Of a stretch of 64,000 nucleotides of DNA, positions 1,626-4,691 are shown in pieces. How positions within the stretch are numbered: position 1 is the first letter of the stretch; every line of letters begins with the position of its first letter. The translations under genes and the position numbers were made by a program. Source of the DNA: an uncultured Chloroflexia bacterium (GTDB taxonomy: Bacteria; Chloroflexota; Limnocylindria; Limnocylindrales; CSP1-4); NCBI GenBank assembly GCA_963819655.1, contig CAWFXA010000002.1, positions 1,024,001-1,088,000 on the forward strand. Reading direction: 5' to 3'. Under the pieces are notes generated by a model. The model searched no databases, had not been told where the DNA came from, and saw only the letters and a list, made by a program, of their open reading frames with translations.

Positions 1626-2498
1626 CTACGCCGTCGCCGCTCGGCGGACCTCGTAGCCGCCTCCCTCCGCGGGACGGATCTCATAGCTCGGCTGGTCGTA
1701 GACGGTCGGGCCTCGTCGAGCGAGGCCGTCGACCAGTCGGTATCGCGAGAAGTGCCAGGGGCACTCGATGCAGCCGTCGACCAGCCGGCCCTCGTTCAAG
1801 GGGCCCCCGGCATGAGCGCACACGTTGTGCATCGCGTGAAGGGTGCCCCCGATGCGCACCACCACGAGGTCGTTGATGCCGGCGCGCATCTTGGTCGGCG
1901 TCGCCTCGGGAAGGTGATCGAGATCGGTCACGGTGCCCGTATCGAGACGGACCCATCTGGTGCCCGCCCCGCGGAACGCATGGCGGCTGACCATGTTGCC
2001 GAGCAGGTACACGACGTCTCCGCCGACGAACGCCCCTGCGCTCACGATCAGGAACCCGATGATCGACAGCGCGATCGGCACGGTCCGGTCGACGGGCGCG
2101 CCGGCGCGCATCAGTGCTGACACGATCAGCACGAGCAGGGTCACGGTCATCAAGGACGCGTGCAGCGTCGCTCGGGTCAGTGGCGTGCCGGTCGTCTCGC
2201 TGTAGTCGGCCAGGCCCGACAGCGCCGCGAGGACCATGAACACGATCGTCCCGATCAGGACGATGTCAGCCGCGGTCGGCTGGCCGAGCACATCCAGGAT
2301 GACGACCCCGAGCAGCATGCCGATCGGGATGTCGGTCGACGCCGCATGGAGTGGGTGGCCGAGCCAGCGGCCGTTGAGCAGGTCCCGGATCGGCGGCATC
2401 GCGCGGAACAGCGCCGAGGTCCAGCGGTGGTTGAACTCCCCGAACGGCCGTGCCCAGCCGTCGTTCAGTGATACCAGTCGAGCCAGCAGTCGTGCCAT
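1626..2498 (-). CDS. DUF2231-type membrane domain fused to a C-terminal Rieske [2Fe-2S] domain
   Basis: WLGHPLH..TDIPIG plus about four TM helices; Rieske ligands CAHAGGPL...CPWH; GGAGG RBS upstream. Confidence 0.85.
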   Translation of the reverse strand: MARLLARLVSLNDGWARPFGEFNHRWTSALFRAMPPIRDLLNGRWLGHPLHAASTDIPIGMLLGVVILDVLGQPTAADIVLIGTIVFMVLAALSGLADYSETTGTPLTRATLHASLMTVTLLVLIVSALMRAGAPVDRTVPIALSIIGFLIVSAGAFVGGDVVYLLGNMVSRHAFRGAGTRWVRLDTGTVTDLDHLPEATPTKMRAGINDLVVVRIGGTLHAMHNVCAHAGGPLNEGRLVDGCIECPWHFSRYRLVDGLARRGPTVYDQPSYEIRPAEGGGYEVRRAATA

Positions 2499-2561
2499 CG
2501 ACCCACCTCCCGTTGAAGGAATCTACGCCGCGCGGGTCGTGTATGGATGCTGCAAGCGTGG

Positions 2562-2636
2562 CCGTCCACATTCCGTCCACACTCGGGGGAATCTCGGGGA
2601 TAAGCCATCGACCATTCAGACGAAGTTCGTGGATAA
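2562..2636. promoter_or_regulatory. Cluster of DnaA-box-like 9-mers
   Basis: CCGTCCACA at 2562 and 2573 (11-bp period); CGGGGATAA at 2595-2603 and CGTGGATAA at 2628-2636 (reverse complements have 2 and 1 mismatches to TTATCCACA). Confidence 0.35.
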
Positions 2637-2641
2637 GGCGG

Positions 2642-2671
2642 TTGTGGCCGTATCGACCCGGCGGGTACATT
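2642..2671 (+). promoter_or_regulatory. Putative sigma70-type promoter for the candidate ncRNA
   Basis: TTGTGG (2642-2647), 18-nt spacer, TACATT (2666-2671), immediately upstream of the hairpin-rich region. Confidence 0.45.
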
Positions 2672-2673
2672 TC

Positions 2674-2886
2674 GTCCTGCCCGAAGGGGCAGGTGCGAAC
2701 CGCCAGACCGCACCGAGGAGCGATCCTCGGGACGGTCCCGGAAGCCGGGTTCGATAGTCGCAAGGCCGTCGAGCGAGGATTTCGGGCGGAGCGTAATGAC
2801 TCCGGACTTGTTCGGAGCCGTTGCGAGACGACGGGCGGTCCTCCCACCAGTTCCTTCGGGCGCTTTCGTGTGCGCGGGAGTCTCTT
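2674..2886 (+). ncRNA. Candidate structured non-coding RNA (multi-branched, family unknown)
   Basis: Consecutive stems capped by GAAG, GCGA, GCAA, CUUG and UUCG loops with G-U pairs on the + strand; closing helix ACCGCC/GGCGGT; no credible ORF. Confidence 0.55.
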
Positions 2887-2960
2887 GTCGCGCTCCGATG
2901 CGCCGAAAACGTGGTTCCTGGACTGCACGACTGGGCCGAAGCGAGCGCGCCGCTGACGCT

Positions 2961-3080
2961 CCGCAGCGCCCGACCGTGTCTGTGAGCGCGGAATCACGCC
3001 GCAGCGCCCGATCGTCTTTGAAGCACGGATCTCGCCGCAGCGTCGGTCCGACCATGAACTACGCGGATGGCAGCGTCCTT
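2961..3080. repeat. Degenerate ~35-38 bp tandem repeat (about 3.3 copies)
   Basis: Units start CCGCAGCGCCCGA (2961), CCGCAGCGCCCGA (2999), CCGCAGCGTC (3035) and GCAGCGTC (3070); the first three share an internal TGA...CGGA. Confidence 0.55.
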
Positions 3081-3243
3081 AGGTCCGGAAGAGGTCGGTT
3101 AGACCTCGCTCTGGCCCCTACCGACCAGCCATAACGCCGCTATGGATGCGCGATGTGCATGGTCGACGGCTGTGAAGGAGTCGATGGCGGCCCGGATCTC
3201 GACATTGCGTCGCTGGGATGCGCGTACTTCATGGTTGGGGAGG

Positions 3244-3320
3244 GGATTCGGGAGGCCGGGCGTGATTGGGAGTCCGGGCGGGTCGCGGGCGGCCGGGCGT
3301 GGATTCGGGCGCCCGGGCGG
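3244..3320. repeat. G-rich ~20-bp imperfect tandem repeat (4 copies)
   Basis: GGATTCGGGAGGCCGGGCGT / GATTGGGAGTCCGGGCG / GGTCGCGGGCGGCCGGGCGT / GGATTCGGGCGCCCGGGCGG. Confidence 0.55.
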
Positions 3321-3431
3321 CCAAAAGCCGTGCTCGTATCTCGCCTCGAGCCTGATCTGCAGTCTGCCAGGCATACGTTCGACCGATCGCGCCGTGTGCG
3401 CCGACATGCTCGGCACGGTAGCCTCGCGCCG

Positions 3432-4691
3432 GTGACCCCGCCTCTTGACGTCCGCCCCGCCGAGGACTGGCGCCGCCTACTCGTGGTCTTCTGGCTCACG
3501 TCGATGGTCGAGGCCCTCGGCGTCAGCCAGATCTTCGCCCTGGTCCCCTCGTACCTGCGGGAGATGGGCGTTCCACAGGACGAGCGGCTGGCTTTCGTCG
3601 GCTTGTTCTCTTCACTGATCTTCGTCGTGGGCATGCCGCTCGTCCCGCTGTGGGGCGTGTGGGCCGATAAATACAGCCGCAAGGCCGTCATCGTGCGGAG
3701 CGCGCTCGTCGAGGCAGTCGTGTTCGCCGGCGTCGCTCTGTCGCGCGAACCCTGGCAGCTCGCACTGAGCATGCTGCTGATCGGCTTCCAGCTGGGCAAC
3801 ACCGGGGTGATGCTGGCCGGCATCCGGGACGTCACGCCACTCGCCCGACTCGGCACTGTCATGGGCATCTTCGGTGCCTCGACCGCTGTCGGTTTGGCGC
3901 TCGGCCCGACACTCGCCGGACTGCTCATCGACGGGTTCGGCTGGTCGCTGTCGGCAGTGTTCTGGTTGTCGGCCGGCCTCTCGATCGCGACGGCCTTGCT
4001 GGTCACGTTCGGCTCACGCGAGGTGCGCCCGTCCGTGATCCCGCAGGGGCGGATCGTCACCCTCGCGTTCGGGGCGATGCGGGCCGTTCTGACGGACGCG
4101 ACCGTCCGGCGGATCTTCCTGATCTTCGGTGTCTCGTTCCTGGCGACCCAGATGAGCCGGCCATACCTTCCGGTCGTCGTGGAAGGGCTCGCCGGGACCG
4201 GCGCCGGCCTCGCGTCGGCGATCGCGCTCGTCATGGGCACTGCGGCGCTGGTCGGCGGGCTCATCGCGCCGCTCGGTGGCTGGCTGGGCGACCGCGTCGG
4301 TTTTCGACCCGTCCTCGTGGCGGCCCTCGCGGGTGGTGGCGTGGTCCTGGCACTGATGCCGTTCGTGCCGTCGGTGGCCGCGCTGGCGGGCCTCGCCGTC
4401 ATCCTCGCGGCCGCGACGGCCACGGTCAGCGCGATGGTGTTCGGCATGCTTGCGACCGACGTGCCGGCCGACCGCCGCTCCGCCACGCTCAATCTCGTCT
4501 ACCTGCCGCTGTACACGGCTGGGATCATCGGGCCGGCGCTCGGCGCCGCGGTCGTCGGGCTCGGTGGATTACCCGCGCCATTCGTCCTCGGCGCGGCGGT
4601 GTTTATCGCGGGCGCGATCGTGATCGCCACGCGCCGGGCGTCGAGCACGGCGGTCGCCGCCGCTCCTGGTGCGGTCAGCCTCGATCCCTGA
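3432..4691 (+). CDS. MFS transporter (DHA1/MdtG-like)
   Basis: About 12 TM helices, motif A WGVWADKYSRK and GWLGDRVGFR. Start moved to GTG 3432 (TAGCCT -10 element 7 nt upstream). Confidence 0.88.
   Translation: MTPPLDVRPAEDWRRLLVVFWLTSMVEALGVSQIFALVPSYLREMGVPQDERLAFVGLFSSLIFVVGMPLVPLWGVWADKYSRKAVIVRSALVEAVVFAGVALSREPWQLALSMLLIGFQLGNTGVMLAGIRDVTPLARLGTVMGIFGASTAVGLALGPTLAGLLIDGFGWSLSAVFWLSAGLSIATALLVTFGSREVRPSVIPQGRIVTLAFGAMRAVLTDATVRRIFLIFGVSFLATQMSRPYLPVVVEGLAGTGAGLASAIALVMGTAALVGGLIAPLGGWLGDRVGFRPVLVAALAGGGVVLALMPFVPSVAALAGLAVILAAATATVSAMVFGMLATDVPADRRSATLNLVYLPLYTAGIIGPALGAAVVGLGGLPAPFVLGAAVFIAGAIVIATRRASSTAVAAAPGAVSLDP

What the first reader, a model, noticed from the sequence alone, without database searches (positions are those of the whole stretch)
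2674..2886. Unannotated ~210-nt multibranched RNA with several canonical tetraloops and its own promoter
Seen on the + strand: CCTGCCC-GAAG-GGGCAGG (2676-2693); a closing helix ACCGCC 2699-2704 / GGCGGT 2834-2839. Inside it: GACCG-CA-CCGAGGA-GCGA-TCCTCGG-GA-CGGTC (2706-2737), TCGATAGTC-GCAA-GGCCGTCGA (2751-2772), CTCCGGA-CTTG-TTCGGAG (2800-2817) and CCGTTG-CGAGA-CGACGG (2818-2834). After it: CTCCC...CC-TTCG-GG...GGGAG-TCTCTT (2841-2886). GNRA, CUUG and UUCG loops plus G-U pairs point to selection at the RNA level and fix the strand. A TTGTGG-18-TACATT promoter lies just upstream. The next gene is about 550 nt away with its own -10 element, so a stand-alone RNA is more likely than a riboswitch (inference). 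I could not match it to tmRNA, RNase P, SRP, 6S or common riboswitches.
Basis: partly seen in the sequence, partly recalled or inferred. Interest (0 to 1): 0.72.

Follow-up and report, generated by a model that had tools for sequence, protein, structure and literature searches.

The report
New three-armed small RNA gene family
This stretch is a real, stand-alone gene for a roughly 190-base folded RNA of unknown role, seen in RNA libraries from soil and sediment, and it belongs to a previously undescribed set of small RNA genes in uncultured soil Chloroflexota that all share one promoter signal and one closing stem.

Summary
The feature is real. Window about 2677 to 2866 (+ strand) is a non-coding RNA gene with its own conserved promoter. 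It matches no Rfam family.

The 5' end and 3' end pair with each other in a near-invariant 12+4-bp stem (P1), followed by a U-rich tail.

- **Covariation:** 20 of 70 pairs show double changes within the genus, against 8.0±1.4 in shuffles. Across genera the figure is 53 of 70 against 40.9±2.1.
- **Independent folding:** 31 of 36 orthologues fold alone into the same shape.
- **Copy number and linkage:** it is single-copy in its genome and loses its neighbouring genes outside the genus.
- **Expression:** RNA-library contigs from four studies cover it.
- **Wider family:** shorter RNA genes share a fixed upstream box (GTGGAYAA, like the local DnaA box), its 42-nt spacing and the same end stem. This signature occurs in 89 of 91 genomes of one Limnocylindrales family.

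The function is unknown. My best guess is a protein-binding structural RNA, not an antisense regulator. It is novel and moderately to highly interesting.

The parts
2562..2604 (.). Three further DnaA-box-like words upstream of the promoter: CCGTCCACA (2562-2570), CCGTCCACA (2573-2581, both in reverse orientation) and GGGGATAAG (2596-2604).
   Evidence: Read. GGGGATAAG is the box form used by family f4 members. This stretch is not conserved in position across the genus, so whether it belongs to the unit is uncertain.
2626..2638 (+). Upstream promoter box TTCGTGGATAAGG. The 9-mer CGTGGATAA is at 2628-2636. It lies 5 nt before the -35 and a fixed 42 nt before the RNA's GCCCG.
   Evidence: Present in 36 of 36 orthologues found with a model that does not contain it. 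The same words occur in the dnaA-dnaN spacers of 4 of 4 one-contig relatives and of this genome.
2642..2647 (+). -35 hexamer TTGTGG.
   Evidence: Conserved as TTGTGG, TTGCGG or TTGACC in relatives.
2666..2671 (+). -10 hexamer TACATT, 18-nt spacer.
   Evidence: Nearly invariant in the genus. In other genera it reads TATGGT, TATCGT or CATTCT.
2677..2866 (+). The RNA itself, about 190 nt. The ends are approximate.
   Evidence: The conserved block ends near 2870. RNA-library contigs lie on 2672-2867, with adapter letters directly before 2677 and behind 2860. z -5.05.
2679..2695 (+). P1, 5' strand: GCCCGAAGGGGC (2679-2690), A, GGUG (2692-2695).
   Evidence: Pairs with 2845-2861. 98.9% of cells paired in A1. 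Inner pairs covary across genera. The outer pair is G-C in f1 and U-A in f4.
2699..2704 (+). P2, 5' strand ACCGCC (partner 2834-2839).
   Evidence: 6 of 6 pairs have double changes across genera.
2707..2736 (+). Arm A: hairpin with a 2x2 internal loop and a GNRA loop (GCGA).
   Evidence: 91.9-96.4% of cells paired. The apex G.GAG[GNRA]AUC is conserved across genera.
2737..2786 (+). Arm B: P4 (2737-2746 with 2777-2786), an internal loop, and the P5 hairpin with a GCAA loop.
   Evidence: Double changes in helices 4-6. The apex CCGCAAGG is conserved across genera.
2787..2830 (+). Arm C: P7 (CGGA/..CG), P6 (CGUAAUG/CGUUGCG) and an apical hairpin with a CUUG loop.
   Evidence: 18 of 18 pairs have double changes across genera (helices 7 and 8). 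The apex differs by genus: CUUG, GCAA, or an insert GAGAUCACAUCAAGG.
2834..2839 (+). P2, 3' strand GGCGGU.
   Evidence: See P2 5' strand.
2845..2861 (+). P1, 3' strand: CACC (2845-2848), A, GUUCCUUCGGGC (2850-2861).
   Evidence: Invariant in 30 of 30 genus sequences from column 193 on. It is shared by all paralogues.
2862..2872 (+). U-rich tail GCUUUCGUGUG. Together with P1 it is the presumed intrinsic terminator.
   Evidence: Conserved in the genus and in paralogues. Contigs end at 2853-2863. The terminator role is inferred; the consensus scan found none.

Best explanation
Window about 2677 to 2866 (+ strand) is a stand-alone gene for a roughly 190-nt non-coding RNA. It belongs to a previously undescribed small-RNA gene family of Limnocylindrales (Chloroflexota).

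**Shown.**
- It has its own conserved promoter: an upstream box TTCGTGGAYAAG, then -35, then -10.
- The first about 17 nt pair with the last about 17 nt in a stem (P1) whose sequence hardly changes. A U-rich tail follows.
- Inside P1 a second helix closes a tight four-way junction that bears three long arms. Two arms are capped by GNRA loops. The third has a variable cap.
- The shape is kept by compensatory changes while most of the sequence drifts.
- The same promoter box, the same spacing and the same P1 stem frame other RNA genes with quite different, mostly shorter bodies. This genome has five such genes.

**Inferred.**
1. P1 plus the tail acts as the transcription terminator and as a clamp that protects both ends.
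2. Because the stem is conserved in sequence, including two G-U pairs, and not merely in pairing, it is also a docking site for a protein common to the whole family.
3. The long three-armed member works as a protein-binding or architectural RNA, in the manner of 6S or Y RNA, not by antisense pairing. It keeps shape rather than any single-stranded sequence.
4. Its transcription, like that of its siblings, is governed by a protein that binds the upstream box. That protein is most likely DnaA, whose local binding word the box matches.
For: **Real and structured.** z -5.05 on +, against -1.80 on -. Within the genus, 92.2% of cells pair and 20 of 70 pairs show double changes, against 8.0±1.4 in shuffles (0 of 500) and 1-7 when partners are slid. 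Across genera, 53 of 70 pairs against 40.9±2.1 (0 of 500), slid 26-34. That alignment was fitted to the model. As a check without a fitted alignment, 31 of 36 orthologues folded singly give paired ends plus exactly three arms.

**Conserved and single.** There is one full-length match in 32 of 36 genomes of the genus. Full-length matches of at least 55 bits occur in 52 of the 109 family-f1 genomes searched. The own genome has one copy.

**Independent gene.** The genus-level neighbours (Rieske in 18 of 22 loci, MFS in 19 of 22) appear in 0 of 28 loci of other genera, where neighbours vary.

**Seen in RNA libraries.** Contigs from four runs of four studies lie on 2672-2867. They include near-identical ones with 2-3 differences over 142-179 nt, whose whole length lies inside the RNA. 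Adapter letters abut 2677 and 2860.

**Shared frame.** The box is present in 36 of 36 orthologues. The box-spacer-GCCCGRAGGGGC signature is in 89 of 91 f1 genomes, at 1-5 copies, with none for the reversed control. In 71 of 83 pattern matches the 3' motif follows.

**Shape, not sequence.** Across genera only P1 and the apices of arms A and B are invariant.

**Box resembles the DnaA box.** The same words cluster in the dnaA-dnaN spacer here and in 4 of 4 one-contig relatives. They also stand upstream of rsmG-like and parA-like genes.
Against: - No partner protein is known. No Hfq, CsrA or Ro/TROVE gene was found in this 91%-complete genome, so the usual RNA-binding partners are missing.
- The reasoning from 'conserved in sequence' to 'bound by a protein' is indirect. 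P1 could be constrained by termination alone, or at the DNA level.
- The RNA data are assembled contigs pooled over relatives. They show neither strand nor true ends, and depth is a poor measure of level.
- The cross-genus covariation rests on a model-fitted alignment.
- The RNA was not found in the small-genome sister family (0 of 42) or in family f3 (0 of 49), so it is not a universal housekeeping RNA.
- The DnaA reading rests on a consensus recalled from knowledge plus local word clusters. In this genome no cluster of four or more boxes with at most one mismatch exists anywhere.
Confidence: 0.6

Rival explanations
1. It is a trans-acting antisense small RNA. Exposed loops or junction bases pair with mRNAs, and the elaborate fold only presents the seed and stabilises the RNA.
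For: Shorter siblings carry strongly conserved apical loop words, such as GAGAUCACAUCAAGG in 1-4 copies per RNA. That is what seed regions look like. In some genera this word sits on arm C of the long form. A U-rich 3' tail after a stem is typical of such RNAs.
Against: In this genus the loops of the long form are generic GNRA and CUUG caps. No single-stranded stretch is conserved across genera. A genome search for the complement of the sibling loop word gave 37 sites, mostly inside coding frames and with no pattern at gene starts. No Hfq was found.
Confidence: 0.2
2. It is this lineage's functional stand-in for 6S RNA and binds RNA polymerase.
For: The Rfam 6S model finds nothing in this genome. 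In the class it hits only 1 of 151 genomes, and that one is a 6%-contaminated MAG. The size (about 190 nt), the long closing stem and the presence in RNA libraries of four studies fit.
Against: The fold is a tight four-way junction with three arms. It is not a rod with a large central bubble. It was not found in families f2 and f3, and only short forms were found in f4. The 6S model also misses known 6S-bearing control phyla, so its silence says little.
Confidence: 0.1
3. It is a cis-acting leader or riboswitch of the downstream MFS transporter gene.
For: It lies on the same strand and upstream of the MFS gene in 19 of 22 loci of the genus. In several relatives the gene starts within about 100 nt of it.
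Against: The linkage is lost in 28 of 28 loci of other genera. Junction and internal-loop bases are not conserved, so there is no ligand pocket. The MFS gene has its own -10 and a leaderless GTG start. Here about 565 nt of unconserved spacer separates them.
Confidence: 0.03
4. It is a DNA-level element. Either it is a mobile repeat with terminal inverted repeats, or it is a DnaA-titrating site whose transcription is incidental.
For: The two P1 strands are an imperfect inverted repeat. The frame recurs 1-5 times per genome, and DnaA-box-like words stand upstream.
Against: Copies share only the frame, not the body. Each sits at a fixed, syntenic place within the genus. The mismatches of the repeat are G-U pairs that work only in RNA on the + strand. 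The body covaries as RNA. RNA-library contigs cover it.
Confidence: 0.03

Closest known systems
Sibling small-RNA families driven by one shared upstream activator site, such as RsmX/Y/Z with the GacA box or Qrr1-5 with LuxO/sigma-54 (recalled, not tested here)
   Same: There are several RNA genes per genome. Each has its own promoter that carries the same upstream box at a fixed distance, and each ends in a similar terminator. Some members repeat one loop word several times.
   Different: Here the shared part is an invariant stem made of the RNA's two ends. The bodies range from about 75 to over 180 nt and have unrelated folds. No CsrA gene was found. The box looks like a DnaA box, not a response-regulator site.
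Y RNAs (Ro/Rsr-bound RNAs of animals and some bacteria; recalled)
   Same: The 5' and 3' ends form a conserved stem that is the common handle. The bodies are variable, there are several paralogues per genome, and there is a U-rich 3' tail.
   Different: No TROVE/Ro gene was found in the genome. There is no Rfam Y-RNA or YrlA match. The stem sequence differs, and the body is a three-armed junction.
6S RNA (Rfam RF00013)
   Same: Similar size, a long closing stem, a single-copy stand-alone gene, and presence in RNA libraries.
   Different: There is no central bubble and no match to the model. The distribution is patchy within the class.
Large structured bacterial RNAs of unknown function, such as the raiA motif RNA (recalled; in Rfam)
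   Same: About 200 nt, multi-branched, tetraloop-capped, kept by covariation, stand-alone, function unknown.
   Different: No Rfam family matches. This RNA comes with a family-wide promoter box and end stem that those RNAs lack, as far as I recall.

Membership tests
Any Rfam 15 family | Score at or above the family's gathering threshold | tested here: not met
   There were 0 matches over the 64-kb window. In E-value mode on 2400-3500 the only match was P17, at 12.7 bits against 45. There were 0 matches on 20 loci of relatives and siblings and on the tandem paralogues.
6S RNA | Match to the 6S covariance model | tested here: not met
   The model also misses some control genomes, so this is a weak test.
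6S RNA | Rod-like fold with a large central bubble between the closing and terminal stems | tested here: not met
   The fold is a tight four-way junction with three arms. It is supported by covariation and by 31 of 36 single-sequence folds.
6S RNA | Binds the RNA polymerase holoenzyme and templates product RNAs | not testable with these tools
   Needs biochemistry.
Y RNA | A Ro/Rsr (TROVE) protein encoded in the genome, usually nearby | tested here: not met
   No PF05731 match in the 91%-complete genome.
Y RNA | Conserved stem formed by the 5' and 3' ends, with a variable body | tested here: met
   P1 is invariant while the bodies differ. This shows that it works like a Y RNA, not that it is a member.
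CsrB/RsmZ-type protein sponges | A CsrA/RsmA gene in the genome and repeated GGA loops | tested here: not met
   No PF02599 match. The loops of the long form are GNRA and CUUG.
Hfq-dependent small RNAs | An Hfq gene in the genome | tested here: not met
   No PF17209 match.
Riboswitch or cis leader | Constant linkage to a downstream gene class, and conserved junction or loop bases that form a pocket | tested here: not met
   Neighbours are lost in 28 of 28 loci outside the genus. Junction bases are not conserved.
MITE or dispersed repeat | Many near-identical copies in one genome | tested here: not met
   There is one full-length copy, and other matches are at most 31 nt. Paralogues share only the frame.
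Intrinsic (factor-independent) terminator | G+C-rich stem directly followed by a U tract, with transcripts ending there | tested here: inconclusive
   P1 (12+4 bp) is followed by GCUUUCGUGUG. The scan found none because its loop limit is 8 nt. Contigs end at 2853-2863 and adapter letters follow 2860, but contigs cannot prove an RNA end.
DnaA-regulated promoters | A DnaA box (consensus TTATCCACA/TGTGGATAA, recalled) close to the promoter | tested here: met
   CGTGGATAA is at 2628-2636. The same words cluster in the dnaA-dnaN spacers. The box is kept in 36 of 36 orthologues.
DnaA-regulated promoters | DnaA binds the site and changes transcription | not testable with these tools
   Needs EMSA, ChIP or reporter assays.

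The most novel reading that the evidence does not exclude
Limnocylindrales run a 'chassis' system for small RNAs. One promoter module reads the replication initiator DnaA through a consensus box at a fixed distance. One invariant end-to-end stem serves as terminator, stabiliser and docking site for a still unknown lineage-specific protein. Between these fixed parts evolution swaps bodies, from 75-nt hairpins with repeated loop words to this 190-nt three-armed RNA. On this reading the long form is a lineage-specific ribonucleoprotein RNA whose level tracks the replication or growth state, filling the place that 6S RNA holds elsewhere.
Probability: 0.2. Interest if true: 0.85.

Novelty: new variant of a known kind. 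Interest (0 to 1): 0.7.

Why it matters
Limnocylindria are common but uncultured soil and sediment bacteria, and nothing is known about their RNA biology. I found no paper that links them to small RNAs.

This work defines a covariation-supported RNA with complex architecture that can be added to RNA family databases. It also defines a whole set of sibling RNA genes recognisable by a simple signature: box, 42 nt, GCCCGRAGGGGC.

Three points would interest specialists.
- An end-to-end stem kept in sequence across two bacterial families hints at a new RNA-binding partner, in a lineage where no Hfq, CsrA or Ro gene was found.
- A DnaA-box-like promoter element is common to all these RNA genes. That would tie small-RNA output to the replication initiator, and I know of no precedent for it. 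The search listed none, but I saw only the listing.
- RNA-library contigs match it in rhizosphere, sediment and mine-drainage samples, so it could be used as a marker in metatranscriptomes.

Tried and rejected
- **Rfam P17 match** (E 1.6): chance level.
- **Consensus promoter and terminator scan**: found nothing. Its thresholds miss an 8-of-12 promoter and a stem with a 150-nt 'loop'.
- **Flanks in the read lay-out:** bins 2560-2671 and 2868-2960 had no cover in any of the four runs. The contigs pool relatives whose flanks are not alike, and no DNA run was laid. Summed depths (up to about 1e5 in X2) are likewise not a measure of expression.
- **Run search:** 19 RNA runs from 14 studies held 0.23-0.35 of the sampled words. 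Only four runs were laid, so I make no habitat claim beyond those four.
- **Antisense targets:** the complement of the sibling loop word, with up to one mismatch, gave 37 sites. Most were inside coding frames with no pattern at starts. Shuffled words gave 0-31. I dropped this line.
- **Genome-wide clusters of DnaA-like boxes:** none with four or more boxes within 400 nt at up to one mismatch. GC skew on three unordered contigs was not informative.
- **Partner proteins:** TROVE, Hfq and CsrA were not found.
- **Conserved neighbour genes outside the genus:** 38 flanking frames of 19 loci gave varied families or no Pfam hit.
- **6S complementarity test across the class:** uninformative, because the model finds 6S almost nowhere there (1 of 151).
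- **Earlier scan notes:** look-ups by sequence, place and words gave nothing on this RNA.
CCGTTG/CGACGG and CTCCC/GGGAG were rejected.

Full report
**1. Observation**

The region lies in a gap of about 930 nt. On one side is a Rieske/DUF2231 gene on the minus strand (1626-2498). On the other is an MFS transporter gene on the plus strand.

The plus strand of 2674-2886 folds to -117.7 kcal/mol. Two hundred dinucleotide shuffles average -94.2±4.7, giving z -5.05, and none fold as well. The minus strand gives z -1.80, with 11 of 200 shuffles as good. So the folding signal is real and strand-specific.

**2. Not a known family**

- Rfam 15 at gathering thresholds gives no match in the whole window.
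- With permissive filters on 2400-3500 the only match is P17, at E 1.6 and 12.7 bits against a cut-off of 45. That is noise.
- SRP RNA, RNase P RNA and tmRNA are found elsewhere in the genome.
- The Rfam 6S model finds nothing in it.

**3. Conservation**

The window's genome is 3.49 Mb in 3 contigs and 91% complete. It has one full-length copy, and the other matches are at most 31 nt.

In the same genus, 32 of 36 genomes have one full-length match at 75-93% identity. In the small-genome sister family, 1 of 24 genomes has only a 28-nt chance match.

The alignment shows a sharply bounded conserved block. It runs from an upstream box (TTCGTGGAYAAG) through a -35 (TTGTGG) and a -10 (TACATT) to about 2870. 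After that the sequences diverge completely.

**4. Structure**

RNAalifold and inspection gave the following model.

| Element | Window coordinates | Description |
|---|---|---|
| P1 | 2679-2690 + 2692-2695 with 2845-2848 + 2850-2861 | stem formed by the two ends |
| P2 | 2699-2704 with 2834-2839 | second closing helix |
| Arm A | 2707-2736 | hairpin, GCGA loop |
| Arm B | 2737-2786 | P4 plus P5, GCAA loop |
| Arm C | 2787-2830 | P7, P6 and a CUUG-capped hairpin |

The evidence for this model is as follows.

- **Genus alignment, not fitted to any structure.** 92.2% of cells pair. Twenty of 70 pairs have changes on both sides, against 8.0±1.4 in shuffles (0 of 500) and 1-7 when the partners are slid by 1-3 columns.
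- **Across genera.** A covariance model built from the genus alignment found full-length orthologues in many genera of the family. On 36 of them, 53 of 70 pairs have double changes against 40.9±2.1 (0 of 500; slid 26-34), and 87.5% of cells pair against 70.2%. This alignment was fitted to the model and so leans towards it.
- **Independent check.** I folded each of the 36 sequences alone. Thirty-one give paired ends and exactly three arms. Two more show the same shape and were counted apart only because my trimming left a 3' tail.
- **Strand.** The model scores 223.4 bits on the plus strand of the own locus and 34.0 bits on the minus strand.

**5.

- The hairpin CCGTTG/CGACGG pairs in 58.3% of cells.
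- The 3' hairpin CTCCC/GGGAG pairs in 53.6% of cells, and its 3' half lies in unconserved sequence.
- The 5' hairpin (2676-2693) can form in this genus (98.6% paired, no variation), but I read its core as one strand of P1.

Three observations favour P1 over the local 5' hairpin.

- One relative has lost one base on each strand of the inner part (L021).
- The inner pairs exchange U-A for C-G across genera (UA:13, CG:11).
- In four of four RNAs read from another family of the class, the outermost pair is U-A instead of G-C. That change would break the local hairpin.

The local hairpin may still form transiently during transcription. This is inference.

**6. A stand-alone gene**

Within the genus the Rieske gene is a neighbour in 18 of 22 loci and the MFS gene in 19 of 22. 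In 28 loci from other genera neither is present. The neighbours there are varied: luciferase-like oxidoreductases, penicillin-binding proteins, DnaB-like ATPases, GroEL and ABC transporters. Eighteen of the 38 frames tested had no Pfam hit.

The MFS gene has its own -10 (TAGCCT, 3419-3424) and what looks like a leaderless GTG start at 3432.

**7. RNA evidence**

Nineteen RNA runs from 14 studies hold part of the stretch. I laid four of them, from rhizosphere (two studies), sediment and mine drainage. All are assembled contigs.

- In each run the contigs lie on 2672-2867.
- Each run has near-identical contigs. Examples are 173 nt on 2691-2863 with 2 differences, and 179 nt on 2688-2860 with 3.
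- The full length of these contigs lies inside the RNA.
- Adapter letters abut 2677 and 2860.

This fits a discrete RNA from about 2677 to the U tract after 2861. Contigs cannot show strand, true ends or level, and they pool related organisms. I therefore treat the ends as approximate.

**8. The wider family**

The model also hit shorter elements, two of them in tandem in the own genome. Reading them showed that they share three things with the long RNA:

- the upstream box,
- a fixed 42-44 nt from the box to GCCCGRAGGGGC,
- and the 3' word GGUUCCUUCGGGCG followed by a U-rich tail.

Their bodies are unrelated. This genome has five such genes. The composite box/-35/-10 pattern occurs seven times in it. 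The other two sites lie upstream of an rsmG-like gene and an unknown gene.

The signature box-N40-46-GCCCGRAGGGGC was searched more widely.

- **Species-representative collection.** Of the 80 fetched loci, 74 carry Chloroflexota-type labels. Three of the rest look like chance matches, and three look like real members on contigs with other labels.
- **Class sample.**

| Family | Genomes with the signature |
|---|---|
| f1 (the window's) | 89 of 91, at 1-5 copies |
| f2 | 2 of 12 |
| f3 | 0 of 92 |
| f4 | 0 of 103 |
| Reversed-pattern control | none anywhere |

Family f4 nevertheless has members with a slightly different box (TCGGGGATAAG).

In the 80 loci, 71 of 83 pattern matches are followed by the 3' word within 420 nt. 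The lengths between the two words cluster as follows.

| Length between the two words (nt) | Number |
|---|---|
| 54 | 1 |
| 73-86 | 43 |
| 111-117 | 5 |
| 144-157 | 3 |
| 179-186 (this RNA's type) | 15 |
| 255-277 (ends less certain) | 4 |

Two apical loop words recur in the siblings: GAGAUCACAUCAAGG (1-4 per RNA) and a GUG-CUUG-CAU hairpin. In some genera the first word replaces the CUUG cap of arm C of the long RNA. None of 20 such loci matches Rfam.

**9. The promoter box**

All 36 orthologues found with a model that does not contain the box carry GTGGA[CT][AG]A at the same place. The word equals the DnaA box in reverse orientation (consensus TTATCCACA, or TTGTCCACA in high-GC bacteria). 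That consensus is recalled knowledge.

- In this genome the dnaA-dnaN spacer holds TTGTCCACG, ATGTGGACG, CCGTCCACC and CCTCCACAC next to an AT-rich stretch.
- In four of four one-contig relatives the same spacer holds 4-7 such cores, including TGTGGACAAG and CGTGGATAAG.
- Box pairs also precede a parA-like gene.
- A paper I saw only in a search listing reports DnaA control of gidAB-parAB in Pseudomonas (PMC13438810).

I infer that DnaA, or a protein with the same specificity, controls the whole RNA gene family. This is not shown. A genome-wide scan found no cluster of four or more near-consensus boxes.

**10. Mechanism**

Across genera only three parts are invariant in sequence: both strands of P1, the apex of arm A (G.GAG-GNRA-AUC) and the apex of arm B (CCGCAAGG). 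The rest keeps its shape only. That pattern fits an RNA recognised by shape and by a few docking points. It does not fit an antisense regulator or a ligand sensor.

P1 keeps two G-U pairs and its exact sequence across two families, which is more than pairing needs. I therefore propose that it is both the terminator/clamp and a protein handle common to the family.

No Hfq, CsrA or Ro gene was found, so the partner would be something else. A 6S-like role is possible because the class seems to lack a recognisable 6S (1 of 151), but the fold lacks the defining bubble.

**11. Novelty**

Full-text searches found nothing for Limnocylindria plus small RNA or for Ellin6529 plus sRNA. A broader search on Chloroflexi, 6S and metatranscriptomes listed nothing relevant by title or abstract. 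I read no paper beyond the listings.

The taxon assignment came first from earlier notes of this scan. It was then supported by the record titles.

I rate this as a new variant of a known kind. It is a stand-alone structured bacterial RNA, with an unusual family-wide frame of promoter box plus invariant end stem.

Noticed in passing
L069 (G000:C3:550600-552000) 474-630 and 706-860; also G000:C2:1280667-1280900 and G000:C2:63748-63880: Four further small RNA genes sit in the same genome, each with the same box, spacing, 5' word and 3' word but an unrelated short body. Two are in tandem upstream of an acyltransferase-like frame. Two carry the loop word GAGAUCACAUCAAGG or a variant of it.
   Followed up: partly
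loci L098-L177 and L225-L228: The loop word GAGAU(C/U)(A/G)CAUCAA(G/C)G recurs 1-4 times per RNA in many siblings and across two bacterial families. From memory it resembles the 3' end of 16S rRNA (GGAUCACCUCCUU). Its core GAU-CAC-AUC can itself form a mini-hairpin. No target pattern was found.
   Followed up: partly
G000:C2:398389-398470; G000:C3:935527-935570; G000:C3:98637-98700: The same DnaA-box-like words stand upstream of an rsmG/gidB-like gene, a parA/soj-like gene and an unknown gene. This is what one would expect of a DnaA regulon.
   Followed up: partly
L220 500-1000 (G000:C2:468294-468794): The dnaA-dnaN spacer holds five GTCCAC/CTCCAC-type boxes and an AT-rich stretch (ttactacggtgatgacggagtaagaagaaagagagaag). 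It is a likely replication origin.
   Followed up: partly
window 2873-3431: About 560 nt of spacer lies between the RNA and the MFS gene. It is not conserved in relatives, where the gene often starts within about 100 nt of the RNA. It holds only short direct repeats, such as CCGCAGCGCCCGAYCGT twice and GGATTCGGG-type units. It looks like an insertion specific to this genome.
   Followed up: partly
window 3419-3434: The MFS gene appears to be leaderless. A TAGCCT -10 lies 7 nt before a GTG start, and the same arrangement (TAGGCT-N6-7-GTG) occurs in relatives. The 512-aa ATG frame from 3153 is probably too long.
   Followed up: no
L136, L123: Contigs labelled Patescibacteria group and Sulfomarinibacteraceae carry typical members of this RNA family. 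L136 has the long form of this genus. They are probably mis-binned Limnocylindrales contigs.
   Followed up: no
class-wide sample: The Rfam 6S model finds a match in only 1 of 151 genomes of the class, and that genome is 6% contaminated. Either the class lacks 6S RNA or its 6S is too divergent to detect.
   Followed up: no
L130, L146, L174, L112: Longer members (about 255-305 nt) in another genus have the same frame and a complex body that starts GCCCGGAGGGGCCAGCGAGAUC.... They also have no Rfam match.
   Followed up: no
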